Assembly (NCBI GenBank): GCA_050734425.1
Contig: JBOHUL010000083.1
Location: 6,934 to 70,933 of the forward strand
DNA: 64,000 nt
DNA from: Candidatus Dormibacteria bacterium
GTDB taxonomy: Bacteria > Chloroflexota > Dormibacteria > Aeolococcales > Bog-877
Reading direction: 5' to 3'
Below the pieces are notes generated by a model, which did no database searches, had not been told where the DNA came from, and saw only the letters and a list, made by a program, of their open reading frames with translations. Position numbers and translations under genes: made by a program. Every line of letters begins with the position of its first letter. The stretch's first letter is position 1. This document shows positions 32,109-48,370 of this stretch, piece after piece.

Positions 32109-34369
32109 GTCCGGAGCCCGACTTCCGGGTCCCCGACCCCCTTGAGCTGCGCCGGCTGGGCCTGACCCGAGAGGAGTACCTGGCCGCGGCCCGGGAGCTT
32201 CGACGCCAACCCAATCCCCTGGAGCTGGGGATGCTGGCGGCGCTCTGGTCGGAGCACTGCAGCTACAAGACCTCCAAGCGGCTCTTGCGCCAGCTGCCGA
32301 GCCGCTCGCCGCGGGTGGTCCAGGGACCGGGCGAGAACGCTGGGGTGGTGGACCTGGGCGACGGGCTCTGCTGCTGCTTCAAGATCGAGTCTCACAACCA
32401 TCCCAGCGCGGTGGAACCGGTCCAGGGGGCGGCAACCGGGGTGGGGGGCATCCTCCGCGACGTCTTCGCCATGGGCGCCCGGCCGGTCGCCATCCTCGAC
32501 TCGATCTGGTTCGGCGAGCTGGAGCGACCGGAGCAGCGGCTGCGACTGCGGCGGGTGGTGGAAGGGGTGGGCGGCTACGGTAACTGCGTTGGTGTGGCCA
32601 CCGTAGGGGGGGAGACTCGCTTCCTTCCCGGCTACCGGGACAACTGCCTGGTCAACGCAATGTGCCTGGGGCTGGTGCGGACTGAGGAGGTGGTCCGGGC
32701 TCGCGCTGCCGGGAAGGACAACCCCGTCCTGCTGGTGGGCGCCGACACCGGCCGCGACGGCATCCACGGTGCCGCATTCGCTTCCGAGCGGCTGGAGCCC
32801 GGCGCCGCTCGGCGGCCCCAGGTCCAGATCGGCAACCCCTTCCTGGAGAAGTGCCTGCTCGAGGTGTGCCTGGAGCTGGCCCGCGACCCCGACCTGGTCG
32901 GCCTCCAGGACTGCGGCGCGGCCGGGCTCACCAGCAGCTGCGTCGAGATGGCGGGACGGGGTGGGGTGGGGCTGGAGCTCCAGGTGGACCGTGTCGCCCG
33001 CAGGGAGCGGGGCATGACCCCCTACGAGGTGATGCTGAGCGAGTCCCAGGAGCGCATGGTGCTGGTGGTGCGGCGGGGCAGCGAGGAGCGCTTCCAGGGC
33101 CGCTTCCGGCGTTGGGGCCTGCACAGCGACGTCATCGGGCGGGTGACCCAGGATGGGGTCCTCCGGGTGAGGGATGGGGAAGAGGAGGTCGCCGGGCTGC
33201 CGGTAGCGCTTTTGGTCTCGGGCTGTCCCGAGCGCCGGCCTCCGTCCCGGGCCCCGGAGCTGTCGTCGGTTCTGAGCGCTGATCCGCTCTTGGCCAAGCC
33301 GCCCTGGCCGGCGGCCGAGGCCTGGTTGCGGCTCCTGGCCTCGCCCAACTGTGGCGACAGTCGCTGGGTCTGGCGCCAGTACGACCACCAGGTCGGCGAC
33401 GACACCGTCCTGGGGCCGGGTGGCGACGCCGCCGTCCTGCGCCTCAAGGGGCGCCGCGACGGACTCGCCGTCACCGTCGACGGCGCCCACCGCTCGGCCG
33501 CCCTCGACCCGGCGAGGGGTACGGCCATCGCCGTGGCCGAGGCGGTCCGCAACCTGGCCTGCGTCGGGGCCGAGCCCCTGGCGCTGACCAACTGCCTCAA
33601 CTTCGCGGACCCCGAGAGGCCGGAGGTGATGTGGCAGCTGGAGCAGGCGGTGGCGGGTCTGGCCCAGGCCGCCCGCGCTCTGGGGATACCGGTGGTCAGC
33701 GGCAACGTCAGCCTCTACAACGAGTTCGGAGGGACCGGGATCCCGCCCACCCCCACCATCGGGGTGGTGGGCCAGATCCCCGAGCTGACCAGCGGCCCAC
33801 GGCTCGGCTTCCGGCTGGCGGGCGACCTGGTCGCCCTGGTGGGGAAGGTGGGGGCCGGGCCGGCGGGGGTGGAGCTCGGCGGTTCCGAGTACCAGCTCCT
33901 CAGCTCGGGCCGGCTGGAGGGGCGGCCTCCGGAGCTCGACCTGGAGCGGGAGCGGCAGGCGGCCCAGGCGGTCAGGACCGCAGTCGGCCGAGGCCTGCTC
34001 CAATCGGCGCACGACTGCTCCATGGGAGGGTTGGCGCTGGCGCTGGCCGAGTGCGCCATCCAGGGAGGGGTGGGGGCCAGCATCAAAAGTCCGCTCCCCC
34101 GTCCAGGGACGGCCGGGCCCTCCTGGGAGATGGGCCTGCTCTTCGGCGAGACCCAGGGTCGCTACCTGATCAGCTACGACGAGGGCGACCGGGAGCCTCT
34201 GGTCCGGCTGCTGGCGGAGCTCGGGGTTCCCCTGACCGAGCTGGGACGGGTTGGGGGCGAGGAGGTAGAGCTCCAGGGATTGGCCCGCCTGCCGCTGGGC
34301 GAGGCCCGGAGGGCGTGGGAGGGGGCGATCGCCGGCCAGATGGACCGGCCCGCCCAGCCTGGGGGCTGA
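32105..34369 (+). CDS. purL: Phosphoribosylformylglycinamidine synthase II
   Basis: 754 aa. The TTG start overlaps the purQ stop. SEHCSYKTSK and duplicated AIR-synthase-related domains. Confidence 0.9.
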   Translation: MSPEPDFRVPDPLELRRLGLTREEYLAAARELRRQPNPLELGMLAALWSEHCSYKTSKRLLRQLPSRSPRVVQGPGENAGVVDLGDGLCCCFKIESHNHPSAVEPVQGAATGVGGILRDVFAMGARPVAILDSIWFGELERPEQRLRLRRVVEGVGGYGNCVGVATVGGETRFLPGYRDNCLVNAMCLGLVRTEEVVRARAAGKDNPVLLVGADTGRDGIHGAAFASERLEPGAARRPQVQIGNPFLEKCLLEVCLELARDPDLVGLQDCGAAGLTSSCVEMAGRGGVGLELQVDRVARRERGMTPYEVMLSESQERMVLVVRRGSEERFQGRFRRWGLHSDVIGRVTQDGVLRVRDGEEEVAGLPVALLVSGCPERRPPSRAPELSSVLSADPLLAKPPWPAAEAWLRLLASPNCGDSRWVWRQYDHQVGDDTVLGPGGDAAVLRLKGRRDGLAVTVDGAHRSAALDPARGTAIAVAEAVRNLACVGAEPLALTNCLNFADPERPEVMWQLEQAVAGLAQAARALGIPVVSGNVSLYNEFGGTGIPPTPTIGVVGQIPELTSGPRLGFRLAGDLVALVGKVGAGPAGVELGGSEYQLLSSGRLEGRPPELDLERERQAAQAVRTAVGRGLLQSAHDCSMGGLALALAECAIQGGVGASIKSPLPRPGTAGPSWEMGLLFGETQGRYLISYDEGDREPLVRLLAELGVPLTELGRVGGEEVELQGLARLPLGEARRAWEGAIAGQMDRPAQPGG

Positions 34370-34375
34370 CTGACC

Positions 34376-35914
34376 TTGTCGCTGGCGGCGTGGATGGCGC
34401 CGCTTGCGGGTATTCTTGTGATGGTGAGAGCCCAGGCAGGCCCCCCCGCGGCCCGGTCCCCGGTCGGTCCGGGTGGGACGGCCGAGCCCGACAAGCTGCA
34501 CGAGGCGTGCGGCATCTTCGGGATATTCCTCCCTGAGGAGGAGGTCGCCAACCTCTGCTATCTCGGGCTCTACGCGCTCCAGCACAGGGGCCAGGAGTCC
34601 GCTGGGATCTGCACCTCCGACGGGGAGCGGCTCCACCTCCACCGGGACATGGGGCTGGTGGGGCAGGTCTTCTCAGGTGAGGAGCTGGCCCAGCTGCGGG
34701 GGGGGCTGGGGATAGGCCACACCCGCTATTCCACGACCGGTTCCTCGCGACTCAGCAACGCCCAACCCTTCACGTTCGAGCACGGCCAGCTGGGGCCGGT
34801 GGCCCTGGCCCACAACGGCAACCTGACCAATACCGCCACGCTCAAGGAAGGGCTGGTGGAGGAGGGCCAGGAGTTCCATACCTCCAGCGACACCGAGATC
34901 CTGGCGACCCTCCTGTCCCGGACCCCGGGGGAGAGCCTGGCAGTGGTGCTGGAGCGGGCCCTGCCCCGGGCCCAGGGCGCCTACTCCCTGGGGTTCATCA
35001 CCAAAGACAGCCTGGTCGCCGCCCGCGACCCGCTGGGAATCCGGCCGCTGTGCATCGGCCGCCTGGGGCCAGAGGACGCCCCCGGGGGTAGTGGCTACAT
35101 CGTCGCCAGCGAGACCTGCGCCCTGGATGTTGTCGGGGCCCGGCTGATCCGCGAGGTCCGCCCGGGAGAGATCGTCACCATCGACCGTGAGGGACTCCGC
35201 TCCGCCCAGTTCGGCGAGCGCCGCCACCCGGCCATGTGCTCCTTCGAGTTCATCTACTTTGCCCGCCCGGACTCGGTGCTGCAGCAGCGCAGCCTCTACG
35301 AGGCCCGGCGGGAGATGGGGGCGCAGCTGGCCCGGGAGTCGCCGGTGGAGGCGGATCTGGTGATACCCCTGCCAGACTCCGGCACCCCCGCCGCGATCGG
35401 CTACGCGGAGGAGAGCCGGCTGCACTTCGCCGAGGGCATGATCAAGTCGCGCTACATCAACCGCACCTTCCTGCAGCCGGAGCAGGGCCTGCGCGACGCC
35501 GGGGTCCGACTCAAATTCAACCCCATGCGCCATGTGCTCGAGGGCAAGCGAGTGATCCTGGTGGACGACTCCATAGTGCGCGGCTCCACCTCAAGGCGGA
35601 TCGTCGAGGCCCTGCGCCGGGCGGGAGCCCTCCAGGTGCACGTCCGGGTGGCGTCACCGCCGATCCGCTTCCCCTGCTTCATGGGCATCGACATCGCCAG
35701 CCGCAGCGAGCTCATCGCGGCCGGTCGCAGCCTGCAGGAGGTGCGCCAGCTGATCGGGGCCGATTCCCTCGCCTATCTCAGCCTCAAGGGGTTGCGCCAG
35801 GCTCTGCGGGCCAACCAGAACGGCTCGGGTTTCTGCTTCGCCTGCCTGGACGGCGCCTACCCGATCCAGGTCCCGCAGCAACTGGAGATGGACAAGCTGG
35901 CACTTGAAAGCTGA
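34376..35914 (+). CDS. purF: Amidophosphoribosyltransferase
   Basis: The Ntn Cys in HEACGIFGIF follows a propeptide. The protein has a PRTase motif (VILVDDSIVRGSTS) and Fe-S cluster Cys residues near the C-terminus. The start is uncertain (34376 or 34421). Confidence 0.85.
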   Translation: MSLAAWMAPLAGILVMVRAQAGPPAARSPVGPGGTAEPDKLHEACGIFGIFLPEEEVANLCYLGLYALQHRGQESAGICTSDGERLHLHRDMGLVGQVFSGEELAQLRGGLGIGHTRYSTTGSSRLSNAQPFTFEHGQLGPVALAHNGNLTNTATLKEGLVEEGQEFHTSSDTEILATLLSRTPGESLAVVLERALPRAQGAYSLGFITKDSLVAARDPLGIRPLCIGRLGPEDAPGGSGYIVASETCALDVVGARLIREVRPGEIVTIDREGLRSAQFGERRHPAMCSFEFIYFARPDSVLQQRSLYEARREMGAQLARESPVEADLVIPLPDSGTPAAIGYAEESRLHFAEGMIKSRYINRTFLQPEQGLRDAGVRLKFNPMRHVLEGKRVILVDDSIVRGSTSRRIVEALRRAGALQVHVRVASPPIRFPCFMGIDIASRSELIAAGRSLQEVRQLIGADSLAYLSLKGLRQALRANQNGSGFCFACLDGAYPIQVPQQLEMDKLALES

Positions 35915-35921
35915 GAGGGAA

Positions 35922-36959
35922 GTGGTGGGGGGCGGGGCTCTGAACCGCTATGCCGAGGCGGGGGTGGACCGCGCCCGGGCCCGGCTCGCGGTCAGCCGCA
36001 TCGCCGAGTTGGCCCAGGGCACCCAGGGCGCCCATGTCCTCGGGGGGATCGGGCCCTTCGCCGCCCTCTGGCAGCTGGGGCCGGACCTGCCGAAGGACCC
36101 GATTCTGGTCAGCTCCACCGACTCGGTCGGCACCAAGGTCAAGGTGGCGGTGGCCCTGGGGCGGCACCGGGGTATAGGCGAGGACGTGGTCAACCACTGC
36201 GTCAACGACGTGCTCACCACCGGAGCCAGTCCTCTCTTCTTCCTCGACTACTTCGCGAGCGGGCACCTGGAGGAGTCGGTGCTGCAGCAGCTGGCGGAGG
36301 GCATGGCCCTGGCCTGCCGCCAGAACGGCTGCGCTCTGATCGGGGGGGAGACCGCCGAGATGCCCGGGGTCTACGGCCTCGGCGACTACGACCTGGCCGG
36401 GTTCGTCGTCGGCCTGAGCGCCAAGGAGGACCTGCTGGGGCCGTCGCGCGTGTGCCCCGGTGACCGGCTCCTGGGTCTCGCCTCGACCGGGCTCCACACC
36501 AACGGGTACTCTCTGGTCCGTCACCTGCTGACCGAGCGGGAGATGGACTACGGTGCCACCCTGCCCGGAACCGACGCCCCCTTGGGGGCCCTGCTCCTGG
36601 CCGTGCACGCCTCCTACCTGGAGCCGGTGCGGGAGTTGCGGCGGCTGGGGGAGGTGCACTCGCTGGCCCACATCACCGGCGGGGGCATCCCGGAGAACCT
36701 GCCCCGGGCGCTGCCGGAGTCGCTGGAGGGGGCGGTGGACCTGGGCGCCTGGACGGTGCCGCCCCTCTTCTCCGCCCTGGGGGAGCTGGGGGCCGTGCCC
36801 GAGGACGAGCTCTGGCGCACCTTCAACATGGGGGTGGGCATGATCGCGGCCGTCCCCGAGGCGACCTGCCGGGCGGCCCTCGGCCGACCTGAGCTGGGGT
36901 TCTTCGAGATGGGCCGGGTCGGGGAACGTCAAGGCCCCGACCGGGTCCGCCTCCTCTGA
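35922..36959 (+). CDS. purM: Phosphoribosylformylglycinamidine cyclo-ligase (AIR synthase)
   Basis: ORF 35904..36959. The GTG at 35922 follows GAGAGGG. The AIR synthase N- and C-domains are present (SSTDSVGTKVKVA, LIGGETAEMPG). Confidence 0.85.
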   Translation: MVGGGALNRYAEAGVDRARARLAVSRIAELAQGTQGAHVLGGIGPFAALWQLGPDLPKDPILVSSTDSVGTKVKVAVALGRHRGIGEDVVNHCVNDVLTTGASPLFFLDYFASGHLEESVLQQLAEGMALACRQNGCALIGGETAEMPGVYGLGDYDLAGFVVGLSAKEDLLGPSRVCPGDRLLGLASTGLHTNGYSLVRHLLTEREMDYGATLPGTDAPLGALLLAVHASYLEPVRELRRLGEVHSLAHITGGGIPENLPRALPESLEGAVDLGAWTVPPLFSALGELGAVPEDELWRTFNMGVGMIAAVPEATCRAALGRPELGFFEMGRVGERQGPDRVRLL

Positions 36960-36970
36960 CCGCCACGCCG

Positions 36971-37597
36971 GTGGAGCGCATCGGCCTGGGGGTTCTGATC
37001 TCAGGCAACGGCACCAACCTCAGGGCCCTGATCCAGGCCCAAGACCAGGAGGCGTACCCGGCCCGGCTGGTCGGCGTGGCCAGCAACCGCCCCAAGTGCC
37101 CGGGCCTGGAGGTGGCGCGCCAAGCGGGCCTGCCCGAGCGCTCCTTTCCCCAGACCACTTTCTCCGGCGACGCGGAGGCCAGGGACCAGGCAGTCGCGTC
37201 GTGGCTCCTGTCCCAGGGGACGGAGATCCTGATCTTGGCCGGCTACGACCGGATCCTGACCCGACCTTTGCTGCGCGCCTTTCCCGGCCGGATCCTCAAC
37301 CTCCACAACAGCCTTCTGCCGGCCTTCGCAGGGACCATGGACGCGGTCGAGCAGGCGCTCGAGCATGGGGTCAAGGTCACCGGCTGCACCGTCCACTTGG
37401 TGGACGAGGACTACCTTGACGGGGGGCCGATCGTGGCCCAGGCCCCAGTCGAGGTCAGAGAGGGCGACACCCCGGACTCGCTGCTGCAGCGGATCCACCA
37501 GGAGGAGTGGCGGATCCTGCCCCAGGCGGTGGCCCTGCTGGCCACCGGCCGGCTGCGGGTCGAGGGGCGCAAGGTCCACCTCGAGGCTGCGCCCTGA
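36971..37597 (+). CDS. purN: Phosphoribosylglycinamide formyltransferase
   Basis: LISGNGTNLRAL, a catalytic NLHNSLLP motif and HLVDEDYLDGGPI. Confidence 0.85.
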   Translation: MERIGLGVLISGNGTNLRALIQAQDQEAYPARLVGVASNRPKCPGLEVARQAGLPERSFPQTTFSGDAEARDQAVASWLLSQGTEILILAGYDRILTRPLLRAFPGRILNLHNSLLPAFAGTMDAVEQALEHGVKVTGCTVHLVDEDYLDGGPIVAQAPVEVREGDTPDSLLQRIHQEEWRILPQAVALLATGRLRVEGRKVHLEAAP

Positions 37598-39135
37598 CCC
37601 GCCGCGCCCTACTCGGCCCGGACGACAAGGAGGGCCTGGCTGACTTCGCCCGAGGGCTGGTCGCGCTGGGCTTCGAGCTGGTGGCGACCGGGCGCACCGA
37701 GCGGCTCCTGCGGGAGTCCGGGATCCCGGTCCTGGCCGTGGCCCAGGTGACCGGAACCGAGGAGATGCTGGAGGGGCGGGTCAAGACCCTGCACCCCGCC
37801 ATTCACGCCGGCATCCTGGCCCGACGCGACCACCCTGAGGACATGACCGAGCTGGGGCGGCTGGGCTTCGCCCCCATAGACCTGGTCTGCTGCAACCTCT
37901 ACCCCTTCGCCAATGTGGTGGCTGGAGGAGGTGTGGAGGCGGAGGCGCTGGCGGCGATCGACATCGGGGGTCCCACCCTGCTCAGGGCAGCCGCCAAGAA
38001 TTTCGCCTCGGTCCTGGTCGTCTCCTCCCCGGGGCAATACCCAGAGGTGCTGCAGGGGCTGCGCCAGGGCGGACCTGGCTCGGAGCTGCGCCGGCGCCTG
38101 GCCCACGACGCCTTCCGCCTGGTCTCCGAGTACGACAGACGGATCGCGGACTACCTGGCGCCGGGCGCGCTCGAAGAGGGCGGCTGCCCCACGGAGCTGA
38201 GCCTGAGCGCCCGGCTGGTCGCCCCTCTCCGCTACGGCGAGAACCCCCACCAGTCGGGCGGCCTGTACCAGACCGGGTACCCACCTCGGGCGCTGGCCCA
38301 GTTGCACCAGGTCCAGGGAGATCCCCTCTCCTATATCAACTGGCTCGACCTGGACGCGGCGCGGGCCCTGGCCTACTCGCTGCCGGTCCCCGCGGCGGTG
38401 ATCGTCAAGCACGCCAACCCCTGCGGGGTGGCGCTCGGCTCAGATCCGGCCAAGGCCTTCGCTGCTGCCTACGAGTGTGACCCCCGCTCCGCCTACGGCG
38501 GGATCGTCGCCCTCAACTGCGAGTTAGACGAGGAGGCGGCGAAGTCGATTGCCGGCCACTTCCTCGAGGTCCTGGTGGTGCCCAAGCTGGGGCGCGGGGC
38601 CGGGGACAGGCTCCAGACCAGACCGCGGCTGCGGGTGCTGGAGGACCCTGGGGGCGTCCACTCGCGCCCAGAGCGGTCGGAGGTGGAGGTGCGCAGTGTC
38701 GACGGCGGCCTCCTGGCCCAGACCCCCGACTGGGGGTTGGACGACGAGGCGGCCTTCCAGGTGACCTCCGGGCGCCAGCCGACGGACCGGGAGTGGTCGC
38801 AGCTGCGCCTGGCCTGGGCCGTCTGCCGGGCCGTCCGTTCCAATGCCATCGTCCTCTGCCGCGACGACCGGGCGATGGGCATCGGGGCGGGCCAGATGTC
38901 CCGGGTCGAGGCGGTGGAGCTGGCGGTCAGGCGGGCGGGCGAGCAGGCCCAGGGCTCGGTCTTGGCCTCGGACGCCTTCTTTCCCATGGCCGACGGCCTG
39001 GAGGTGGCGGCTGAGGCAGGTGTCTCCGCCGCGATCCATCCGGGTGGGTCCAAGCGGGACCCCGAGGTGATCGCGGCTGCGGACCGCCACGGCATGGCCC
39101 TGGTCGCTACCGGTCGGCGCCACTTCCGCCACTGA
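37507..39135 (+). CDS. purH: Bifunctional AICAR transformylase / IMP cyclohydrolase
   Basis: The homologous N-terminus (ALLGPDDKEGLADFARGLVALGFELVATG) begins about 37600. The only canonical in-frame start is the ATG at 37507, which would overlap purN by 91 nt, so the true start is uncertain. Confidence 0.8.
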   Translation: MADPAPGGGPAGHRPAAGRGAQGPPRGCALTRRALLGPDDKEGLADFARGLVALGFELVATGRTERLLRESGIPVLAVAQVTGTEEMLEGRVKTLHPAIHAGILARRDHPEDMTELGRLGFAPIDLVCCNLYPFANVVAGGGVEAEALAAIDIGGPTLLRAAAKNFASVLVVSSPGQYPEVLQGLRQGGPGSELRRRLAHDAFRLVSEYDRRIADYLAPGALEEGGCPTELSLSARLVAPLRYGENPHQSGGLYQTGYPPRALAQLHQVQGDPLSYINWLDLDAARALAYSLPVPAAVIVKHANPCGVALGSDPAKAFAAAYECDPRSAYGGIVALNCELDEEAAKSIAGHFLEVLVVPKLGRGAGDRLQTRPRLRVLEDPGGVHSRPERSEVEVRSVDGGLLAQTPDWGLDDEAAFQVTSGRQPTDREWSQLRLAWAVCRAVRSNAIVLCRDDRAMGIGAGQMSRVEAVELAVRRAGEQAQGSVLASDAFFPMADGLEVAAEAGVSAAIHPGGSKRDPEVIAAADRHGMALVATGRRHFRH

Positions 39136-39204
39136 TCCCGGGTGGGTCCCACCGCGCCACCGTTTGTGTATGGTGCGCCCGGGGAGTCCCAGGAGGTGAC
39201 TGCG

Positions 39205-39930
39205 ATGCGTATCCCCCGACGGGCGATGGCGTGGGCGACCGAGGGGACTGCCCTGGTGGTGGCGGGGGTCCTCTATTTCGTGGACCTGTTCCTTCCCTGG
39301 ACCACGCAGCCCTCGCAGGTAATCTTCCCCATCCCGCGCGCGCCCTTCCCGAACGTCCCCAACCTCGGCAGCGCCAGCAGCGTGATCACCGCCCACTCCC
39401 TGTTCCAGACCGGTGGCTGGGGTGGAGTGGGGACGGTGGCCGGGGTGCTGGTGGCGCTGCTAGTGGTCTGGGAGGCCACCCGCGTGGCCCGGGTGGAGTT
39501 CAGTCTGGGGCCGGGCCATCGCAGCCTGCTCAGCGCCATGCTCGCCTTCGGAGTCGCCCTCTTCACCGCCATCAACGTCGCTGGCCGCCTGACCTGGATG
39601 CAGCCCCAGGTGGGACCGCTCGTCTACGGCGGCACCTTCCTCTGGATCTCGGTGGGGCTCGGGGTGGCCATCCTCATCGGGGGCTGGCTGCACTGGGTCA
39701 ACTGGCTCGAGCAGGCGCCCCCGCCTGCGGGCGCCCTGGCGGCGGTCCCGCCCGAACCCCAGGCCTCGCCTCCAGGCACCTGCTTCGCCTGCGGGCACCG
39801 CAACACCGAGGATGCCCGCTTCTGCTCGGCGTGCGGCGCCCAGCTCCGGCCGCCAGGAGGGGGGAGAGTTCCGCACCGGAGAGGTCCGCGCGGAGCGGGC
39901 ACTGGTCCAGGAGCGCCTCCCGCGGGCTGA
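39205..39930 (+). CDS. 4-TM membrane protein with C-terminal zinc ribbon (paralog 1)
   Basis: Within ORF 39142..39930 the ATG at 39205 follows AGGAGGTG. The product has hydrophobic helices and a C-terminal CFACGHRNTEDARFCSACG finger. Confidence 0.65.
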   Translation: MRIPRRAMAWATEGTALVVAGVLYFVDLFLPWTTQPSQVIFPIPRAPFPNVPNLGSASSVITAHSLFQTGGWGGVGTVAGVLVALLVVWEATRVARVEFSLGPGHRSLLSAMLAFGVALFTAINVAGRLTWMQPQVGPLVYGGTFLWISVGLGVAILIGGWLHWVNWLEQAPPPAGALAAVPPEPQASPPGTCFACGHRNTEDARFCSACGAQLRPPGGGRVPHRRGPRGAGTGPGAPPAG

Positions 39931-40043
39931 GCCCCGGTCGTCGCCGGCGCCTGGTTGCGCCACTTCGGCTAGTGATCGCCAGCGCTACACCGGGCCTGGG
40001 CTTGTGTATGGTGCCCCCGGGGGACCCCTGGGAGGTGACTGCG

Positions 40044-40721
40044 ATGCCGATCCGCCGACGCGCGCTGGCCTGGGCTCTGGACGGGACGGCCCTGGTGGTG
40101 GTCGGCGTCCTCTATTTCGTGGACCTCTTCCTCCCCTGGACCGTGCCGCAACCGGCCGGCTGGACGGGGTACCGGCCGCTGGTGATGGCCGGGTTGGGCC
40201 AGACCGGTGGCTGGGGTGGTGCGGGGACGGTGGCGGGGGTGCTCGTCGCCGTCTTGGTGGTCTGGGAGGCCACCCGGGTGGCCCGGGTGGAGTTCGGTCT
40301 GGGGAACGGCCACCGCAGCCTGCTCAGCGCCATGCTCGCGTTCGGGGTGGCCCTCTTCACCGCCGTCAACGTCGCCGGGCGCCTGACCTGGATGCAGCCC
40401 CAGGTGGGACCACTGGTCTACGGCGGTACCTTCCTCTGGATCTCGGTGGCCCTGGGGGTGGTCGTCCTCATCGGGGGCTGGTTGCACTGGGTCAACTGGA
40501 TTGAGAACGCGCCCATGCCGCAGCGGGCACCGCTGGCGGTGCCCCCCGAACCCGTGGCCCTACCCCCAGGAACCTGCCCCAGCTGCGGACGTGGCAATAG
40601 CCCCGAGGCGTCGTTCTGCTCCTGGTGCGGCGCTCGCCTCGGGCAATCGCCAGCCCGGCGCCCCCCGTCGCGCCGAGAGCCGCCTCCGACCCCTCCGTCT
40701 CCCGGCCCGGCCAGCGGCTGA
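40044..40721 (+). CDS. 4-TM membrane protein with C-terminal zinc ribbon (paralog 2, roughly 80% identical to paralog 1)
   Basis: ATG at 40044 inside ORF 39231..40721, with the same SD context. C-terminal CPSCGRGNSPEASFCSWCG finger. Confidence 0.65.
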   Translation: MPIRRRALAWALDGTALVVVGVLYFVDLFLPWTVPQPAGWTGYRPLVMAGLGQTGGWGGAGTVAGVLVAVLVVWEATRVARVEFGLGNGHRSLLSAMLAFGVALFTAVNVAGRLTWMQPQVGPLVYGGTFLWISVALGVVVLIGGWLHWVNWIENAPMPQRAPLAVPPEPVALPPGTCPSCGRGNSPEASFCSWCGARLGQSPARRPPSRREPPPTPPSPGPASG

Positions 40722-40874
40722 TTAGACGCGGGGGACGCTTGTTTCACCCGGTGCAATTTGGCTCTGCCCGCGCGCTGGGCGCCGCCGCAACGCCCTGGTA
40801 GCGACCGGCCGCCCCCAGTTTCGCCACTGGTCCGCAGTGCGGACTCTGCGGGGGAGCCCTGGGAGGTGGCCGCG

Positions 40875-41058
40875 ACGCCGATCCACGGAGGCGCGCTGGC
40901 CCGGGCCTTGGCCGGGCCGGCCCTTGTGGTGGTGAGGGTGCTACGGTTCATGAACCTCTTCCTTCCCTGGACGGCGCAGCAGCCTGCTGGCTGGAGGGGG
41001 TACGGTCTCCGGGGCGGGTCGCGTTGGGCCAGACGGGCGGCGGGGGGTCCGGGTGCAA
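40875..41058 (+). pseudogene. Decayed third copy of the membrane zinc-ribbon gene (N-terminal fragment only)
   Basis: Homologous DNA (GGGAGGTGGCCGCG ACG CCG ATC CAC...) with the start codon ATG changed to ACG. Only about 60 codons remain (ALARALAGPALVVVRVLRFMNLFLPWTAQQPAGW), ending in a fragment resembling the GLGQTGGWGG motif. Confidence 0.5.
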
Positions 41059-41059
41059 G

Positions 41060-42169
41060 ATGCTGCGGAGCCGATCATGGGAGCCGCCAAGACCAGCCCG
41101 ACCCTCGGTTGGCGCCGGCACTCTGGGCAGGGGCCTCAGCCTGCGCGCGCTCACCTGCCACCTACTGACCGCCAGCCTGGTGTTGCTCGCCGGATGCGCC
41201 GCTACCAAAGGCCCCACAGCACCTCGTGCGGTTCCTTGGGCCGCTCTCCCGGTGCATCCCGCCGCCAGCCCCAGTGCCTCGTTGAGCGCCGACCTGCCGT
41301 CCTGTAGTGGCAGTCAGCTGGCGGGGTCGGTGGGCCGCGACGTGGGCCTGACCGGCCAGATGCTCGCACTCCCGATTACCGTCTGGGACCGTAGCCCGCA
41401 GCCTTGCGAGTTGGAGGGAGCGCCGACCGTGACCTTGCTGGACCGGGACGGAGCCCAACTGCCGGAGACTCTGGAGTCCGATTGGGGGCAGATCGCCTCG
41501 CCCACTGAGTTGCCCGTCCGTCTCACCCCAGATCTAACCGGTACAGCACCCAACGGATCGCCAGCGGCGGGCGAAGCAGTGACCGCACTTGTCTGGAGTC
41601 CGGTGCTCGACGACGGGCCCGACTGCCCCTTGGGCGCACCCACGGTGACCACGCTTGCCCTCGGTCTCAGTGGACCAGCTGTCGCCGTCAGCCTCCCTGT
41701 GGGTGGTTCCACTCAACCGAGCTTCGCGCCATGCGGGGGGATGCTCGGAATCGGGACCTTCCAGGCCGTGGCCGCGCCACCCACTGTCCTCGCGCCGGTG
41801 GCGGTCAAAGGCCGTCTGCGCGCCCCCCGGGAGGTTGTGGCCGGTACGACGCTGGCATACGACGTCGTGCTCACCAACCCTGCCCGGCACGCCATCGCCG
41901 AGGCGTGTCCCGCCTACGCCGAGGCCCTGGTGTCGGGCGGACACCGGTACAAGGTGATCGACACCTACCGGCTCAACTGTGGGCCGCGGCTGCGACTTGG
42001 ACCCCGCGCTTCGCGGACGTTTGCGATGCGGCTCGCCACCCACGTGGCGGTTGGCTCCTTCCGCGTCCGGCTGACGTGGTCCTTCTGGGCTCCCAGCGGA
42101 CCTCTGACCCTCGAGCCCCGCTCGGGGCTCGAGGCAGTGATCACAGTGCAGGGACGGCGGGCCGCCTGA
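41060..42169 (+). CDS. Putative secreted lipoprotein (possible DUF4232-like repeats)
   Basis: Within ORF 41024..42169 the start is the ATG at 41060. It has a signal peptide with a lipobox (LLAGC). The product is Ala/Pro-rich with several conserved Cys residues. Confidence 0.55.
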   Translation: MLRSRSWEPPRPARPSVGAGTLGRGLSLRALTCHLLTASLVLLAGCAATKGPTAPRAVPWAALPVHPAASPSASLSADLPSCSGSQLAGSVGRDVGLTGQMLALPITVWDRSPQPCELEGAPTVTLLDRDGAQLPETLESDWGQIASPTELPVRLTPDLTGTAPNGSPAAGEAVTALVWSPVLDDGPDCPLGAPTVTTLALGLSGPAVAVSLPVGGSTQPSFAPCGGMLGIGTFQAVAAPPTVLAPVAVKGRLRAPREVVAGTTLAYDVVLTNPARHAIAEACPAYAEALVSGGHRYKVIDTYRLNCGPRLRLGPRASRTFAMRLATHVAVGSFRVRLTWSFWAPSGPLTLEPRSGLEAVITVQGRRAA

Positions 42170-42408
42170 GCGACTGCGCGGTCTCGCCACCCCCTATCGC
42201 CGGGGGGTCGCCGCGGCTGACGGAACTGTTCGGCAGCCATGCAGCAGGGGGTCGCACCATGCGACCTGAGAGCACCCCCTACCGCCGCCCATCACAGCAG
42301 CCACCGGCTGATCGCGTCCGGTCCCGGCGACCCACTCCGTGGGTCTCGCCAGGCTGTAGGGAAGGTCTCACGTCGGGGTCACGAGCCCTGAATTTTCCAG
42401 ATGCTCAG

Positions 42409-42437
42409 TTGACAGCTTCCACCGCTACCCCTAGGAT
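42409..42437 (+). promoter_or_regulatory. Sigma-70-like promoter (TTGACA-N17-TAGGAT) roughly 160 nt upstream of aceA
   Basis: -35 TTGACA at 42409..42414, a 17-nt spacer, and -10 TAGGAT at 42432..42437. Confidence 0.45.
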
Positions 42438-42596
42438 CTGCCGATGATCCAGGGACCTGGACCCAAATACTGCGCCCTTTGGACTTCGCCCGGGAGCCCC
42501 ATGCGCCCCGGAGCCGGCCTGACGTGCTGCGGCTTGTGAAACCGAACCGCAACTGAGCCGTACTACCACTCGCATCCCAAGAGGAGGAGGTGGCCA

Positions 42597-43909
42597 ATGA
42601 CCATGAGTCCGAATTCTTCCAACGGCAGGCCCGCGACCGCGGCCCAGGAGCTTGAGCGGAGTTGGTCCTTGGAGCGCTGGCAGGGGGTCACCCGGCCCTA
42701 CACCGCCGCTGACGTGGTCCGGCTCCGGGGCTCGATCCAGGTGGAGTACACCCTGGCCCGCCGCGGCGCCGAGCGGCTTAATCAAATGCTGACTACAACC
42801 GGGTATGTCCCCGCCCTGGGGGCGCTCACCGGCCAGCAGGCGGTGCAGATGGTCAAGGCCGGGCTCAAGGCCATCTACCTCTCCGGGTGGCAGGTCGCCG
42901 CCGACGCCAATCTCTCGGGAGAGACCTACCCGGACCAGAGCCTCTACCCCGCCAACAGCGCCCCGGCGTTGGCCCGGCGGCTGAACAACGCCATGCTCCG
43001 GGCGGACCAGATCGCCTGGGCCGAGGGGAACCACGACGGGGACTGGGTGGTGCCTATCGTGGCCGACGCCGAGGCAGGCTTCGGCGGCCCGCTCCACGCC
43101 TTCGAGCTGATGAAGGCGATGATCGAGAACGGGGTCGCTGGGGTCCATTTTGAGGACCAGCTGGCCTCGGAGAAGAAGTGCGGCCATCTGGGCGGCAAGG
43201 TGTTGGTGCCCACCAGCCAGTTTGAGCGCACCCTGGTGGCGGCGCGCCTCGCCAGCGACGTCCTAGACGTGCCCACGGTGCTGGTGGCCCGGACCGACGC
43301 TCTCAGCGCCACCCTGATGACCCAGGACGTCGACCCCCGCGACCAGCCCTTCCTCTCGGGTGAGCGCACCACAGAGGGGTACTTTCGGGTCCGGCCGGGG
43401 ATCGAGCCGGTCGTCGCCAGGGGGCTGGCCTTCGCCCCCTTGGTCGACGCCCTCTGGTTCGAGACCTCGACCCCCAACATCGAGGAGGCCGCCCAGTTCG
43501 CCGAGGCCATCCACGGCCGTTATCCCAACAAGATCCTGGCCTACAACTGCTCCCCCTCCTTCAACTGGAAGAAGCACCTGAGCGACAAGGACGTGGCCGA
43601 CTTCCAGTGGCGGCTCGGGGAACTGGGCTACAAGTTCCAGTTCGTGACCCTGGCCGGGTTCCACGTCGCCAACAGCTCCATGTTCGAGCTGGCCCGGGGC
43701 TACGCCGAGGAGGGCATGAGCGCCTACGTCCGCTTGCAGCAGCGGGAGTTGCAGCTGGAGCAGCACGGCTACACCTCGACCCGGCACCAGACCGAGGTCG
43801 GCGCCGGCTACTTCGACTCGGTACTGGAGACCGTCACCGGTGGCGCCAGCGCGACCTTGGCCCTCCAGGGATCGACAGAGGAGCAGCAGTTCGAGAAGAC
43901 CCCGGCGGC

Positions 43910-43913
<4 letters not shown>
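42597..43913 (+). CDS. aceA: Isocitrate lyase
   Basis: A strong SD (AAGAGGAGGAGGTGGCCA ATG). The ICL signature KKCGHLGGK is present, and the length and N-terminus fit aceA. Confidence 0.9.
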
Positions 43914-45463
<1,550 letters not shown>

Positions 45464-45605
45464 CCCTGACGTTCTGGTGACAAGGCCTTTAGTTCTCGCC
45501 ACCGAGGTTGTCGGCCCGAAACCCCTCTGCTATGTTCGGCCCGAGTTGGGCCTCGGCACGTGACTCGCCACACCTGGCGACACGGATCGTGCCCACGGAG
45601 GCGTT

Positions 45606-46334
45606 GTGAAGATGGTGAGACGGTCCAAGCAGATCCTGGAGCTGCCGCAGGTGGTGCGTTACGGCGAGCCCGAGGGAGGCGGTTGCGACCACCGCGGCTG
45701 CTCGGAAAAGGAGGCCTACCGCTGCCTCTACCGCGACCGCCGGGCGGTGGACTGCTCCTTTGCCGCCTGCAAGGAGCACCTGCGCCAGGTCTCAGGCCGT
45801 GCGTACTGTCCCCGCCACGCCAGCACCGTCGAGGTGATGCAGCTGGCCCAGGAGCGGGGCACCGAGGTGCTCCCCCCCGACCTGGACAACCGCTGCGCTT
45901 CTTTGGTCATGTGGGTCTCCCGCGACCTCAGCGAGCCGGTACTGGAGCGGTTGATCCGCTGGGGCGACTCCGACATGAGCATCATCAACGACCCCGCCGT
46001 CCGCTACACCCGGCCCGACCGGCTGCGCAAGCGGCCGGGCCACTGGGAGCGGATCTGGGCCTTGGCCAACCGCACCGGGATCCTGATCCGGATCGGGGTG
46101 ATGGTGGAAGACGAGCTCCCTGAGACCCTGATCCTCACCGGGGGCACCAACCACCTCGTCACCGCGGTCCCACCCTGGATCCAGAGCCACCTCGCGGGCA
46201 AGGTGGTCGGCAGCTCGCAGTCCGACCTGGTTGAGCGCCTCGCCTTCCAGCAGCAGCTGCTCCTGGCCCTGGACACCTACTACGAGAGATACGGGGTCAC
46301 CTACTCCAAGCTCTTGGTCCCAGTGGGTATCTGA
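45606..46334 (+). CDS. Hypothetical protein with Cys/His-rich N-terminal region
   Basis: 242 aa. The N-terminus carries CDHRGC...C..........C....CKEH......CPRH. No family is recognised. Confidence 0.5.
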   Translation: MKMVRRSKQILELPQVVRYGEPEGGGCDHRGCSEKEAYRCLYRDRRAVDCSFAACKEHLRQVSGRAYCPRHASTVEVMQLAQERGTEVLPPDLDNRCASLVMWVSRDLSEPVLERLIRWGDSDMSIINDPAVRYTRPDRLRKRPGHWERIWALANRTGILIRIGVMVEDELPETLILTGGTNHLVTAVPPWIQSHLAGKVVGSSQSDLVERLAFQQQLLLALDTYYERYGVTYSKLLVPVGI

Positions 46335-46366
46335 GACCCCCGGGCCGCGGGCCGCATAATCGGCCC

Positions 46367-48370
46367 ATGGCCTATGAGGCGATCGTGCCGCCGCCGCCGA
46401 TTGGCGCCACCCGGCACCAGCCTCAGTACCACCAGGGCTACCTCACCTTCAGCCGCAGCTACACCGTAGACATCACCTACCGCTGCCTGCGGCGCTGTGG
46501 CTACTGCGAGTACCGCAAGGACTCGGGCGGCATCACCCCGCTCAGCGACGTGGAGCGGCAATTGGAGACCGCGAGGCGACTGGGCTGCCGCGAGGTCCTG
46601 ATCATGAGCGGGGAGCAACCCTGGCGGCTTCCGGATCTGGGGCTCAAGGACGAGGGCGCATTCGTTGACATCGTCTTGGAGGTCTGCCAGAGGGCGATGC
46701 GGCTGGGGCTTCTGCCCCACAGCAACGTCGGGCTTCTGAGCAAGGAGAGCCTGCGCCGGCTCCAGCCCCTCAACGCCTCCATGGGGCTGATGCTGGAGAC
46801 GGGGACGGACGAGCTCAGAGCCCACGCCTTCGGCGGGGGCAAGCGCCACCTGGAGCGGCTCCGGCACCTGGAGGCGGCGGGCGAGCTGGGCATCCCCTTC
46901 ACCACCGGCATCCTGGTCGGGATCGGGGAGGAGGAGGCGGACCGGCGCCGCGCCCTGGAGCTGATCCGCGACTGTCACCTGCGCCACCACCACATCCAGG
47001 AGGTCATCGTCCAGAACTTCATCCCCAAGCCCAACACCCCCATGGCGGGCCATCCCGCCCCCACAGGCGAGGAGATCCTGGCAGCCGTGCGCCTGGCCCG
47101 GGAGATCCTGCCAGAGGAGGTCGCGGTCCAGGTTCCCCCCAACCTCAACTTCGAGACCTGGCCCGCGCTGGTGGAGGCCGGGGCCTTGGACCTGGGCGGG
47201 ATCTCTTTGGACGGGGACTCGGTCAGCCCCCAGTTCGCCTGGCCCAAAGAGGGGGATCTGGCCGAGAAGGCGAGGTCTTTGGGCTTACGGCTCCAGGAGC
47301 GGCTCCCCGTCTATCAGGAGTCACTGGCGGATCTTCAGCCGGCGGCGGATCGGATGCGCATGGAGCTGGTCGGCGACACCGTCACCTACGTCGTCAACCG
47401 CAACGTCAACATCAGCAACGTCTGCGTTGGCAGCTGCTCCTTCTGCGGCTTCCGCCGCAGCTCGATTCGGGCCAAGGGCGCCTACTTCCATGACCACGAC
47501 ACCGTCTTCCTCAAGATCGCGGACGCCGTCCGCCGCGGCGCCACCGAGATCTGCATGCAGTCGGGCCTGACCCCGGAGCTCAACCTCGACTTCTACGACA
47601 CCCTCTTTCGGGAGATCAAGGAGCGCTGGCCCGCGCTCCACCTGCACGCGCTCTCACCGGAGGAGATCCGCTATATCGCCCTGGAGGCGGGCCGCAGCGT
47701 CGAGGACACGCTCCGGCAGCTCCAGGACGCCGGCCTAGGCACGCTCCCCGGCACCGCTGCCGAGATCTTGGTGCCCGAGGTGAGGCGAATCCTCTGCCCG
47801 GAGAAGCTGAGCGGAGAGGAGTGGCTCCGGATCGTCAAGACCGCCCACAAGGTGGGGATCCGGACCACCTCGACGATCATGTACGGCCACATCGAGACCC
47901 CCTGGCACCGGCTCCAGCACCTGGAGCTGATCCGCAACCTGCAGCGGGAGACGGGGGGCATCACGGAGTTCGTGCTCCTGCCCTTCCAGGTGCAGCACAA
48001 CACCCTCGGCAAGTACTACGGCATCGCCAAGCCGCTGCAGCTGGAGGACTCGCTCCGCTTCACTGCCTACTGTCGGCTCTACTTTGGCAAGGACATCCCC
48101 AACATCCAGACCAGCTGGGTCAAGCTGGGCAAAGGGGGGGTGGCGGAGTCGCTGCGCTGGGGGGCCAACGACTTCGGTGGCACCCTGATGGAAGAGTCGA
48201 TCACCCGCATGAGCGGCGCCGACCATGGCCAGAACCTGGAGCCCAGCGAGATCGAGGCCGCCATCCGCTCGGTGGGACGCATTCCTCGGGAACGCGACAC
48301 CCTCTACCGCGAGGTCAGCGAGAGACCGCGGGACCGCGACCGGGCCCTGGCTGGCGCCGCCGCCTCCTGA
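46367..48370 (+). CDS. fbiC: FO synthase (bifunctional CofG/CofH, F420 biosynthesis)
   Basis: Two radical-SAM modules (CLRRCGYCEY and CVGSCSFCGF) in one 667-aa polypeptide. Confidence 0.8.
   Translation: MAYEAIVPPPPIGATRHQPQYHQGYLTFSRSYTVDITYRCLRRCGYCEYRKDSGGITPLSDVERQLETARRLGCREVLIMSGEQPWRLPDLGLKDEGAFVDIVLEVCQRAMRLGLLPHSNVGLLSKESLRRLQPLNASMGLMLETGTDELRAHAFGGGKRHLERLRHLEAAGELGIPFTTGILVGIGEEEADRRRALELIRDCHLRHHHIQEVIVQNFIPKPNTPMAGHPAPTGEEILAAVRLAREILPEEVAVQVPPNLNFETWPALVEAGALDLGGISLDGDSVSPQFAWPKEGDLAEKARSLGLRLQERLPVYQESLADLQPAADRMRMELVGDTVTYVVNRNVNISNVCVGSCSFCGFRRSSIRAKGAYFHDHDTVFLKIADAVRRGATEICMQSGLTPELNLDFYDTLFREIKERWPALHLHALSPEEIRYIALEAGRSVEDTLRQLQDAGLGTLPGTAAEILVPEVRRILCPEKLSGEEWLRIVKTAHKVGIRTTSTIMYGHIETPWHRLQHLELIRNLQRETGGITEFVLLPFQVQHNTLGKYYGIAKPLQLEDSLRFTAYCRLYFGKDIPNIQTSWVKLGKGGVAESLRWGANDFGGTLMEESITRMSGADHGQNLEPSEIEAAIRSVGRIPRERDTLYREVSERPRDRDRALAGAAAS

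What the first reader, a model, noticed from the sequence alone, without database searches (positions are those of the whole stretch)
39136..41060. Tandem triplication of a roughly 835-bp cassette carrying a conserved upstream element and a 4-TM plus zinc-ribbon membrane protein; the third copy has decayed
Copies start at 39205 and 40044 (proteins roughly 80% identical, both ending in a CxxC-N10-CxxC ribbon). Each is preceded by a near-identical 50-bp element (TTGTGTATGGTGC.CCCGGGG...GGGAGGTGACTGCG). A third unit at about 40845..41060 keeps the element and about 60 codons, but the ATG has become ACG and the ORF runs into an unrelated lipoprotein gene. Part of the decayed copy now forms the N-terminal extension of ORF 41024..42169 (the MGQTGGGGSG segment recalls the GLGQTGGWGG motif of the intact copies). 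This is the clearest recent-duplication and accessory signal in the window, lodged between purH and the aceAB operon.
Basis: seen in the sequence. Interest (0 to 1): 0.6.

Follow-up and report, generated by a model that had tools for sequence, protein, structure and literature searches.

The report
Old tandem duplication of membrane gene
An uncultured soil bacterium (Candidatus Dormibacteria) carries two working copies and one dead stub of a small membrane protein gene that all its known relatives keep as a single copy right after the purine gene purH, which is an ordinary old gene duplication and not a recent or mobile insertion.

Summary
The repeat is real. Three head-to-tail units (start-to-start spacing 839 and 831 nt) lie between purH and a DUF4232 lipoprotein gene, and they are the only internal repeats in the 64-kb window. 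Each unit begins with a copy of the last 21-54 nt of purH. It then carries the native purH-to-gene spacer and the gene for a 4-TM protein with a C-terminal CxxC-N10-CxxC zinc ribbon.

Copies 1 and 2 (241 and 225 aa, 71% identical) are intact and under purifying selection (dN/dS 0.17 in the TM2-4 core). They are not recent: dS is about 0.57.

Copy 3 is a pseudogene stub. It has lost the -10-like half of the upstream element, its ATG is ACG, it has a -1 frameshift, family-invariant residues are changed, and homology ends about 10 nt before the lipoprotein ATG.

A second, independent assembly (99.9% identical, 12 SNPs) shows the same array.

The gene is not accessory. In about 27 other Dormibacteria genomes it lies, as a single copy, immediately downstream of purH behind the same conserved motif, TTGTGTATGGTGC...GGGGAGCGG..GGAGG-N7-ATG. 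That motif looks like a gene-specific promoter plus ribosome-binding site, not a structured RNA.

The TM domain has no Pfam or NCBIfam family. It has remote homologues in Actinomycetota. Its function is unknown.

The parts
39085..39138 (+). Authentic 3' end of purH (last 17 codons plus stop). This segment was copied at the head of units 2 and 3, so the left breakpoint of the duplication lies inside purH.
   Evidence: Local alignments; repeat family D6; purH identified by tblastn and Pfam.
39164..39207 (+). Upstream element of copy 1: TTGTGTATGGTGC (-10-like TATGGT), then GGGGAG..AGGAGG (Shine-Dalgarno), 7 nt, then ATG.
   Evidence: The same motif is conserved in more than 20 orthologous purH-gene spacers.
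39205..39930 (+). Copy 1 (X1), 241 aa: 4 TM helices, Pro-rich linker, CxxC-N10-CxxC zinc ribbon, basic tail. Intact.
   Evidence: (Zn_Ribbon_1 27.3 bits, cut-off 25).
39957..39977 (+). Non-coding copy of the purH 3' end at the head of unit 2 (GCGCCACTTCGGCTAGTGATC, 86% identical to 39117-39137).
   Evidence: (D6).
40002..40046 (+). Upstream element of copy 2 (same 13-mer, same SD-to-ATG block).
40044..40721 (+). Copy 2 (X2), 225 aa, intact. It has a derived 15-aa (45-nt) deletion in extracytoplasmic loop 1.
   Evidence: AF2 model with pLDDT 80.5 and four helices.
40722..40779 (+). 3' flank of copy 2, up to the unit 2|3 junction.
40780..40833 (+). Non-coding copy of the last 54 nt of purH at the head of unit 3 (78% identical to 39085-39138).
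40849..41053 (+). Relic of copy 3. It keeps only the 3' half of the upstream element. Its ATG is ACG (40875-40877). It is in frame for 43 codons, has a -1 frameshift between 41004 and 41020, and homology ends at about 41046-41053. It shares the loop-1 deletion with copy 2.
   Evidence: Substitutions are spread over codon positions 9/7/12, and family-invariant D27 is N (compared).
41060..42169 (+). Neighbouring DUF4232 lipoprotein gene (lipobox LAGC). It is not part of the repeat. It abuts the truncated relic. The ORF-finder start at TTG 41024 would add relic-derived codons.
   Evidence: DUF4232 35 bits, cut-off 27. GC3 is 0.73-0.83 against 0.86-0.92 in neighbouring genes. Absent at this position in all relatives.

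Best explanation
This is an old, lineage-specific tandem amplification of a conserved Dormibacteria gene.

**Ancestral state (shown).** The gene order was purN-purH-X, where X is a single-copy gene about 66 nt downstream of purH. X sits behind a gene-specific motif: a -10-like TATGGT inside TTGTGTATGGTGC, then GGGGAGCGG, a GGAGG Shine-Dalgarno sequence, and ATG.

**First duplication (inferred from anatomy).** A segment starting inside the last codons of purH and ending shortly after the X stop codon was duplicated head to tail. Each new copy therefore inherited the whole native upstream region.

**Second duplication (inferred).** One daughter copy then lost 45 nt in loop 1. That copy was duplicated again, most simply by unequal recombination between units. 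This gave units 2 and 3, which share the deletion.

**Fate of the copies (shown).** Copies 1 and 2 have been kept by purifying selection, so both are presumably expressed from their own promoter-like element. Their differences are concentrated in extracytoplasmic loop 1 and in the tail after the zinc ribbon, which suggests the two paralogues have diverged in function. Unit 3 is dead. It has lost its -10-like box and its start codon, has a frameshift and changed invariant residues, and lacks everything beyond about codon 60. It now ends just before a compositionally atypical DUF4232 lipoprotein gene, which lies in the variable slot between X and aceA.

**Protein (predicted).** X has four TM helices with both termini in the cytoplasm. 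Its conserved residues cluster at the outer membrane face (FxDLFLPW, GWGG, LTW, YGGxFxW). The cytoplasmic part carries a Pro-rich linker, one zinc ribbon and an Arg-rich tail.

**Likely role (inference only, roughly 30%).** A membrane scaffold or adaptor that uses the zinc ribbon and tail to hold a cytoplasmic partner. A role in the cell envelope or division is possible, by positional analogy with rv0954/perM next to purNH in Actinomycetota.
For: - **Repeat geometry and uniqueness in the window:**
- **purH-tail copies at the unit heads:**
- **Independent assembly:** a second assembly with 12 SNPs in 12,678 nt and no indels has the same array. Consecutive NCBI protein accessions for the two copies exist in a further record.
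- **Single copy elsewhere:** X lies directly after purH, once, in about 27 Dormibacteria MAGs, including 2.4-2.5 Mb chromosomes.
- **In-paralogues:** copies 1 and 2 are 71% identical to each other but at most 58% identical to any other member.
- **Age and selection:** dS 0.57 and dN/dS 0.42 overall; dN/dS 0.17 in the TM2-4 core and about 1.3 in loop 1.
- **Relaxed relic:** differences from copy 2 fall on codon positions 9/7/12, against 2/4/11 for X1 vs X2. D27 is N, G21 is R and Y24 is R.
- **Shared derived loop deletion in units 2 and 3:** every other family member and X1 have the long loop.
- **Upstream motif:** conserved at sequence level in 22 spacers, with T-A-T..T and GGAG invariant. The 13-mer is found nowhere else in the window or in the 44 loci.
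- **Fold:** AF2 model with four TM helices, pLDDT 80.5; positive-inside charge distribution.
- **Remote homology:** hhalign to an Actinomycetota family gives probability 99.5%, E 1e-22. Four of those loci lie beside purN-purH, sucD and a DUF6350 (PerM-type) gene.
Against: - No expression or transcription-start data exist, so the promoter reading of the motif rests on sequence alone. TGTG abuts TATGGT one base off the canonical extended -10 register, and there is no -35 box.
- The two junctions keep different lengths of purH tail (21 vs 54 nt). The order and mechanism of the events are therefore not fully determined.
- Lower synonymous divergence in the core (22/82 vs 52/104, Fisher p = 0.0015; p = 0.08 against the well-aligned flanks only) may mean gene conversion. 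If so, dS underestimates the age there.
- Function is unsupported by any characterised homologue. There is no Pfam or NCBIfam family for the TM domain and no PDB fold match below E = 0.8.
- Homology to Rv0954 could not be tested.
Confidence: 0.8

Rival explanations
1. The array is an assembly artefact: a repeat expanded or mis-joined in a metagenome-assembled genome.
For: The source is a MAG. No read data were available to me.
Against: The units differ by 10-28% at the nucleotide level, so they cannot be collapsed or inflated copies of one sequence. A separate assembly (GCA_974104925.1) has 12 SNPs and no indels over 12.7 kb and the identical array.
Confidence: 0.02
2. This is a recent duplication of an accessory or mobile cassette inserted between purH and aceAB.
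For: The extra copies are lineage-specific. The slot between X and aceA varies in content among relatives. The neighbouring DUF4232 gene has atypical GC3.
Against: dS is about 0.57, and the purH-tail copies are 14-24% diverged. The gene is syntenic and single-copy after purH in all other Dormibacteria found. GC3 of both copies matches the host genes. No mobile-element genes are present and there are no PADLOC hits.
Confidence: 0.05
3. The conserved upstream element is a structured cis-regulatory RNA (a riboswitch or leader), not a promoter plus ribosome-binding site.
For: The conservation is strong and specific to this gene, and extends past the -10-like box into GGGGAGCGG. The site is next to a purine gene, where ZTP or purine riboswitches occur.
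Against: Rfam finds nothing in 38000-43000, even at E up to 1. RNAalifold predicts no consensus pairs in 22 sequences. The conservation is of sequence, with no covariation. Only about 25 nt would lie between a start site at this box and the ATG. A protein operator overlapping the promoter is not excluded.
Confidence: 0.07
4. Unit 3 is still functional, either as an N-terminal extension of the DUF4232 lipoprotein (start TTG 41024) or as a small one-TM peptide.
For: ORF 41024-42169 is open through the relic-derived codons MGQTGGGGSG. ORF 40758-41168 is open through the TM1-like segment. The relic still has a GGGAGG box.
Against: - The ATG is lost, the -10-like box is lost, and there is a -1 frameshift.
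- Arginines have been introduced into the former TM1, and invariant D27 is N.
- Substitutions are spread evenly over codon positions.
- The ATG at 41060 gives a normal n-region, h-region and LAGC lipobox.
- The public gene call omits the region.
Confidence: 0.08

Closest known systems
Ordinary tandem (segmental) gene duplication followed by loss of one copy to a pseudogene
   Same: The units are head to tail, in the same orientation and at near-constant period. Homology includes the non-coding flanks and a fragment of the upstream gene. Outgroup genomes have a single copy. One copy is decaying.
   Different: Nothing unusual. The array is old (dS about 0.6), and the two junctions retain different lengths of the purH tail.
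Bacterial membrane proteins with a Pfam Zn_Ribbon_1 (PF13240) / DZR-type zinc ribbon ('zinc ribbon domain-containing protein' in NCBI annotation)
   Same: A single CxxC-N10-CxxC ribbon. Copy 1 passes the PF13240 cut-off (27.3 vs 25 bits) and most orthologues pass clearly.
   Different: The ribbon is only about 22 residues of the protein. The 150-aa 4-TM domain has no Pfam or NCBIfam model. Copy 2 scores 24.8 bits, just under the cut-off. The protein is not a double ribbon, except in one orthologue, P0019.
Mycobacterium tuberculosis Rv0954 (divisome-associated 4-TM protein encoded with perM upstream of purN-purH; PMC8093794)
   Same: Four predicted TM helices with cytoplasmic N- and C-termini and a Pro-rich cytoplasmic tail. 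The genes lie next to purN-purH. Remote Actinomycetota homologues of X lie between purN and a DUF6350/PerM-type gene and sucD.
   Different: Sequence homology was not tested, because no Rv0954 sequence was available. Rv0954 has no zinc ribbon. In Dormibacteria no perM-like gene is adjacent. Gene order and orientation differ from those in Mycobacterium.
Unnamed Actinomycetota 4-TM family (Gaiellaceae, Thermoleophilia, Jiangellaceae MAGs; about 155-210 aa)
   Same: A homologous TM domain (hhalign probability 99.5%, E 1e-22). It shares the FxDLFLPW motif, the G-x-G before TM2 and the W-E motif in TM2, and has the same four helices.
   Different: It has no zinc ribbon and carries Pro/Ala-rich tails instead. 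Identity is 25-35%. Only 4 of 12 loci are near purNH.

Membership tests
Tandem segmental duplication with a pseudogene relic | Head-to-tail units in the same orientation, with near-constant period and homology that extends into non-coding flanks | tested here: met
   Spacing is 839 and 831 nt. purH-tail and spacer copies head each unit.
Tandem segmental duplication with a pseudogene relic | Single copy at the same locus in outgroup genomes | tested here: met
   One copy lies after purH in about 27 Dormibacteria loci.
Tandem segmental duplication with a pseudogene relic | One copy carries disabling lesions and shows relaxed constraint | tested here: met
   ATG is ACG, there is a -1 frameshift, the copy is truncated, the -10-like box is lost, and substitutions fall on codon positions 9/7/12.
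Pfam Zn_Ribbon_1 (PF13240) | HMM score at or above the gathering cut-off (25 bits), with four Cys in a CxxC...CxxC arrangement | tested here: met
   Copy 1 scores 27.3 bits. Copy 2 scores 24.8 bits, marginally below, but has the same CxxC-N10-CxxC. 37 of 37 Dormibacteria members match.
Pfam DZR (PF12773, double zinc ribbon) | Two consecutive ribbons covering the 45-position model, with a score of at least 27.3 bits | tested here: not met
   Only model positions 1-23 match, at 25.7 and 22.7 bits.
   No TM-domain family was found, even at E up to 5-10.
Rv0954-type divisome membrane protein | Four TM helices with cytoplasmic N- and C-termini and a Pro-rich cytoplasmic tail | tested here: met
   AF2 helices at 2-29, 60-79, 88-115 and 127-155. 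Positive-inside charges and a Pro-rich C-terminus. The Rv0954 description is from PMC8093794. These features are generic.
Rv0954-type divisome membrane protein | Detectable sequence or profile homology to Rv0954/MSMEG_5518 | not testable with these tools
   No Rv0954 sequence was obtainable and the AFDB fold library was unavailable. No curated Pfam or NCBIfam model hits the TM domain.
Rv0954-type divisome membrane protein | Encoded with perM (DUF6350), next to purN-purH | tested here: inconclusive
   In Dormibacteria the gene is next to purH but has no DUF6350 neighbour. In 3 Actinomycetota loci the remote homologue lies beside a DUF6350-like gene, though the Pfam score of 25.7 bits is below the 30.8 cut-off.
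Rv0954-type divisome membrane protein | Mid-cell localisation and interaction with divisome proteins | not testable with these tools
   Experimental property only.
Known cis-regulatory RNA (Rfam) | Covariance-model match, or conserved base pairs with covariation | tested here: not met
   There is no relevant Rfam hit at E up to 1 and RNAalifold finds 0 consensus pairs.
Sigma-70-type promoter | -10 hexamer with A at position 2 and T at position 6, a suitable distance to the start codon, and a -35 box or extended -10 | tested here: inconclusive
   TATGGT has T, A, T and the final T invariant in 22 spacers, 31-35 nt before the ATG. There is no -35 box, and the TG dinucleotide is one base off register. 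The simple scanner does not call it. No TSS data exist.
Anti-phage defence system (PADLOC) | HMM match to a known defence protein | tested here: not met
   0 hits for X1, X2 and the DUF4232 protein.

The most novel reading that the evidence does not exclude
The 4-TM domain (FxDLFLPW ... GWGG ... WE ... LTW ... YGGxFxW) defines an unrecognised, ancient membrane-protein family shared by Dormibacteria and Actinomycetota. The family has stayed linked to purN-purH, and in Actinomycetota also to sucD and a PerM-type gene. On this reading it is the remote counterpart of the mycobacterial divisome protein Rv0954, which is currently described as restricted to mycobacteria. The Dormibacteria version would recruit a cytoplasmic partner through a fused zinc ribbon, and the two paralogues here would be specialised variants. 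Its gene-specific 45-nt upstream motif would be a new dedicated regulatory site.
Probability: 0.15. Interest if true: 0.5.

Novelty: new member of a known kind. Interest (0 to 1): 0.25.

Why it matters
As a duplication it matters little. It is a clean, datable example of paralogue gain and loss in an uncultured phylum, useful mainly for correct annotation: two genes, one pseudogene, and the lipoprotein start at 41060.

The by-products are of modest value. One is a conserved but unnamed membrane-protein family that could be given a Pfam model. Another is its invariant position after purH across a whole class, with a remote echo in the sucD-perM-purNH neighbourhood of Actinomycetota. The third is a strongly conserved, gene-specific promoter/5'-UTR motif, one of the few candidate regulatory sequences definable for Dormibacteria, which have no cultured representative.

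Tried and rejected
- **Riboswitch or structured leader:** Rfam search at E up to 1 and an RNAalifold consensus were both negative.
- **General promoter or PurR-type box:** the 13-mer and the 21-mer, with up to 3 mismatches, occur only before the X genes.
- **purH terminator hairpin plus T-run in front of the motif:** present in some relatives (L006 called by the scanner; L010 and L017). The z-scores are weak (-0.3 to -1.7), and the window's own units show none. I kept this as a weak observation only.
- **The B-box zinc-finger TM protein next to the Actinomycetota homologue as a split or 'Rosetta-stone' relative of X:** hhalign probability 1.2%, rejected.
- **Exhaustive HMMER search with the full-length profile:** swamped by multi-zinc-ribbon proteins, with only about 14 TM-domain representatives in the top 150. 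A TM-only profile would have been better.
- **TM-domain family in Pfam:** scanning all 76 family members against Pfam at E up to 10 gave no consistent TM family. The weak YibE_F hits (best E 0.0035) are probably compositional.
- **Defence-system role:** no PADLOC hits.
- **Rv0954 sequence:** I looked in the paper's supplement and it is not there.
- **TRF:** cannot see a period above 500.
Full report

Yes. Self-BLASTN of the whole 64-kb window returns only three internal repeats, and all three belong to this array:

| Segment A | Segment B | Identity | Notes |
|---|---|---|---|
| 39405-39783 | 40199-40577 | 86% | 386 columns, E 1e-113 |
| 39164-39303 | 40002-40142 | 84% | |
| 40018-40225 | 40849-41053 | 78% | E 6e-31 |

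The repeat finder gives start-to-start spacings of 839 and 831 nt. TRF reports nothing only because its longest period is 500.

The two intact ORFs are 39205-39930 (241 aa, X1) and 40044-40721 (225 aa, X2). They are 71% identical, and both end in CxxC-N10-CxxC.

The 21-mer TTGTGTATGGTGCNCCCGGGG occurs exactly twice in the window, once before each ORF, against 0.01 matches expected by chance.

**2. Anatomy of a unit**

- 39117-39137 (the last purH codons plus TGA) recurs at 39957-39977 at 86% identity.
- 39085-39138 recurs at 40780-40833 at 78% identity.

The left breakpoint of the duplication therefore lies inside purH, and every copy inherited the complete native upstream spacer.

A unit consists of four parts:
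- the purH tail (21-54 nt);
- a spacer of about 66 nt carrying the conserved element;
- the ORF;
- a 3' flank of 26-58 nt.

The two junctions keep different lengths of purH tail. Either there were later deletions, or the two events had different end points. I could not resolve this.

**3. The third unit is a pseudogene stub**

- It retains only the 3' half of the upstream element (CGGGGGAGCCCTGGGAGGTGGCCGCGACG). The TTGTGTATGGTGC block is replaced.
- Its ATG is ACG, at 40875.
- It stays in frame for 43 codons, has a 1-nt deletion between 41004 and 41020, and continues for about 15 homologous codons (GLGQTGG).
- Homology ends at 41046-41053.
- Its differences from X2 fall on codon positions 9/7/12. 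For X1 vs X2 over the first 33 codons the figures are 2/4/11.
- Family-invariant residues are changed: D27 to N, G21 to R and Y24 to R.

ORF 41024-42169 does begin with relic-derived codons. However, the ATG at 41060 gives a normal signal peptide with an LAGC lipobox, and the public gene call does not include the region. Translation of the relic is unproven and, I think, unlikely.

Units 2 and 3 share a 45-nt deletion in loop 1. X1 and all other family members lack it. Units 2 and 3 are therefore sister copies, which implies two rounds of duplication.

**4. Not an artefact**

- The copies differ by 10-28%, so they cannot be a collapsed or inflated repeat.
- Locus L001, from a separate assembly (GCA_974104925.1), aligns to window 34044-46721 with 12 SNPs and no indels, and has the same 2-plus-relic structure.
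- Cluster look-up shows consecutive NCBI accessions for the two copies on a further contig of 84,329 nt.

**5. Not recent**

| Region (X1 vs X2) | dS | dN/dS |
|---|---|---|
| Overall | 0.57 | 0.42 |
| TM2-4 core | 0.34 | 0.17 |
| TM1 | 0.49 | 0.22 |
| Loop 1 | 1.05 | about 1.3 |

These Nei-Gojobori estimates show that both copies are kept by purifying selection. Their differences are concentrated in the extracytoplasmic loop and the tail after the zinc ribbon.

Synonymous divergence is lower in the core: 22/82 vs 52/104, Fisher p = 0.0015. Against the well-aligned flanks only, p = 0.08. This may reflect gene conversion or unequal crossing-over, or nucleotide-level constraint.

The non-coding purH-tail copies are 14-24% diverged.

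**6. Not accessory**

The organism is a Candidatus Dormibacteria MAG. A scan of GTDB species representatives, followed by tblastn, shows the following:
- In about 27 Dormibacteria genomes, including 2.4-2.5 Mb chromosomes, X lies immediately downstream of purH (purN-purH-X).
- It is always a single copy there.
- aceA follows at a variable distance of 0.2-3.4 kb.

The nearest relative (58% identity, L004) has one copy.

X1 and X2 are closer to each other (71%) than to any other member (58% or less). They are about equally distant from outgroups. They are therefore in-paralogues with no obvious asymmetry.

The DUF4232 gene is found next to X only here. It has lower GC3 (0.73-0.83) than purH, X1, X2 and ICL (0.86-0.92). 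It sits in the variable slot.

**7. The upstream element**

Aligning 22 purH-X spacers gives this consensus:

TTTTGTGTATGGTGCC-N2-6-CGGGGAGCGGTTGGAGGT-N7-ATG

The invariant positions are T-A-T..T, C, GGG and GGAG.

- The exact 13-mer occurs only at this position in the window and in the 44 fetched loci.
- RNAalifold predicts no consensus pairs, and Rfam finds nothing.
- I read the element as a gene-specific promoter (a TANNNT -10 box with no -35) followed by a 5' UTR of about 25 nt with a GGAGG Shine-Dalgarno sequence.
- A protein operator overlapping the promoter is not excluded.
- Some relatives have a short GC hairpin and T-run just upstream, which resembles a purH terminator. The signal is weak, and the window's own units lack it.

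All of this section is inference from sequence.

**8. The protein**

- Pfam and NCBIfam match only the C-terminal ribbon: Zn_Ribbon_1 at 27.3 bits for X1 and 24.8 bits for X2 (cut-off 25), DZR below its cut-off, and DUF7575 at 28.3 bits against a cut-off of 28.5.
- No family covers the TM domain, even when all 76 family members are scanned at E up to 10.
- AF2 with a 76-sequence alignment gives pLDDT 80.5 and pTM 0.63. The four helices are 2-29, 60-79, 88-115 and 127-155, followed by a small ribbon.
- The charge distribution places both termini in the cytoplasm.
- Conserved residues cluster at the outer membrane face (FxDLFLPW, GWGG, LTW, YGGxFxW), plus W-E in TM2 and an Arg-rich C-terminal motif.
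- Foldseek against PDB gives nothing below E = 0.86. The other fold libraries were unavailable.

**9. Remote relatives and context**

- A family of proteins of about 155-210 aa in Actinomycetota MAGs shares the TM domain: hhalign probability 99.5%, E 1e-22. Reciprocal tblastn gives E from 1e-5 to 1e-16.
- This family lacks the ribbon and has Pro/Ala-rich tails.
- It comprises at least 1,451 clusters at 90% identity, all annotated as hypothetical and without a Pfam domain.
- In four of twelve loci the homologue lies between purN-purH (divergently oriented) and sucD. Three of those four also have a DUF6350/PerM-like gene.
- That is the neighbourhood of rv0954-perM-purN-purH in M. tuberculosis.
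- Rv0954 is a 4-TM, Pro-rich-tailed member of the divisome, described as restricted to mycobacteria (PMC8093794).

I could not obtain an Rv0954 sequence. Homology is therefore untested, and the link is positional and architectural only.

**10. Verdict**

This is an ordinary, old, lineage-specific tandem duplication of a conserved but uncharacterised Dormibacteria gene. It left two functional paralogues and one truncated pseudogene. The labels 'recent' and 'accessory' are not supported.

Interest is low for the duplication itself. The unnamed membrane-protein family, its fixed position after purH and its conserved upstream motif are the parts worth a note.

Noticed in passing
window 39300-39405 and 40140-40200 (loop 1 of X1 and X2); alignment A3: All other family members have two conserved cysteines in extracytoplasmic loop 1, probably forming a disulfide. 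Both window copies and the relic lack both cysteines, so the loss predates the duplications.
   Followed up: partly
L004-L029 (Dormibacteria) and L030, L033, L034, L037 (Actinomycetota): The gene family is linked to purN-purH in two phyla. In Dormibacteria it always lies directly after purH. In four Actinomycetota MAGs it lies divergently beside purN, next to a B-box zinc-finger TM gene and sucD, and in three of the four next to a DUF6350/PerM-like gene.
   Followed up: partly
window 41060-42169: The DUF4232 lipoprotein ORF is open for 369-381 codons. The public gene call covers only its last 142 codons (41741-42169). Its GC3 (0.73-0.83) is below that of neighbouring genes, and no relative has it at this position.
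   Followed up: partly
window 40830-40844: A perfect palindrome, GTCCGCAGTGCGGAC, sits in unit 3 exactly where the TTGTGTATGGTGC box would be.
   Followed up: no
L023 (protein P0019, 292 aa): One orthologue carries two consecutive zinc ribbons, an internal duplication of the C-terminal module.
   Followed up: no
L035 6007-6354 and 6743-7130: A Thermoleophilia MAG has a second, apparently degenerate tandem copy of the Actinomycetota homologue, next to radA. Tandem duplication therefore recurs in this family.
   Followed up: no
L002 10416-11485: In the 2.39-Mb relative, malate synthase is called as two fragments (140 and 136 aa) instead of one gene of about 520 aa. This is a possible frameshift or sequencing error.
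   Followed up: no
window 42409-42437: The only canonical sigma-70-like promoter match in 38800-42700 (TTGACA-17-TAGGAT) lies about 160 nt upstream of the isocitrate lyase start codon.
   Followed up: no
window 37507-37680: The longest purH ORF starts at GTG 37507 and overlaps purN by 90 nt. The public call, and the homology, start at 37681.
   Followed up: no
purH stop codon region and the GGTGCC of the motif, in L010, L013 and L014: The last purH codons (CGG CAC) can pair with the conserved GGTGCC of the upstream motif in several orthologous spacers. Both sides are conserved, so there is no covariation to judge by.
   Followed up: no
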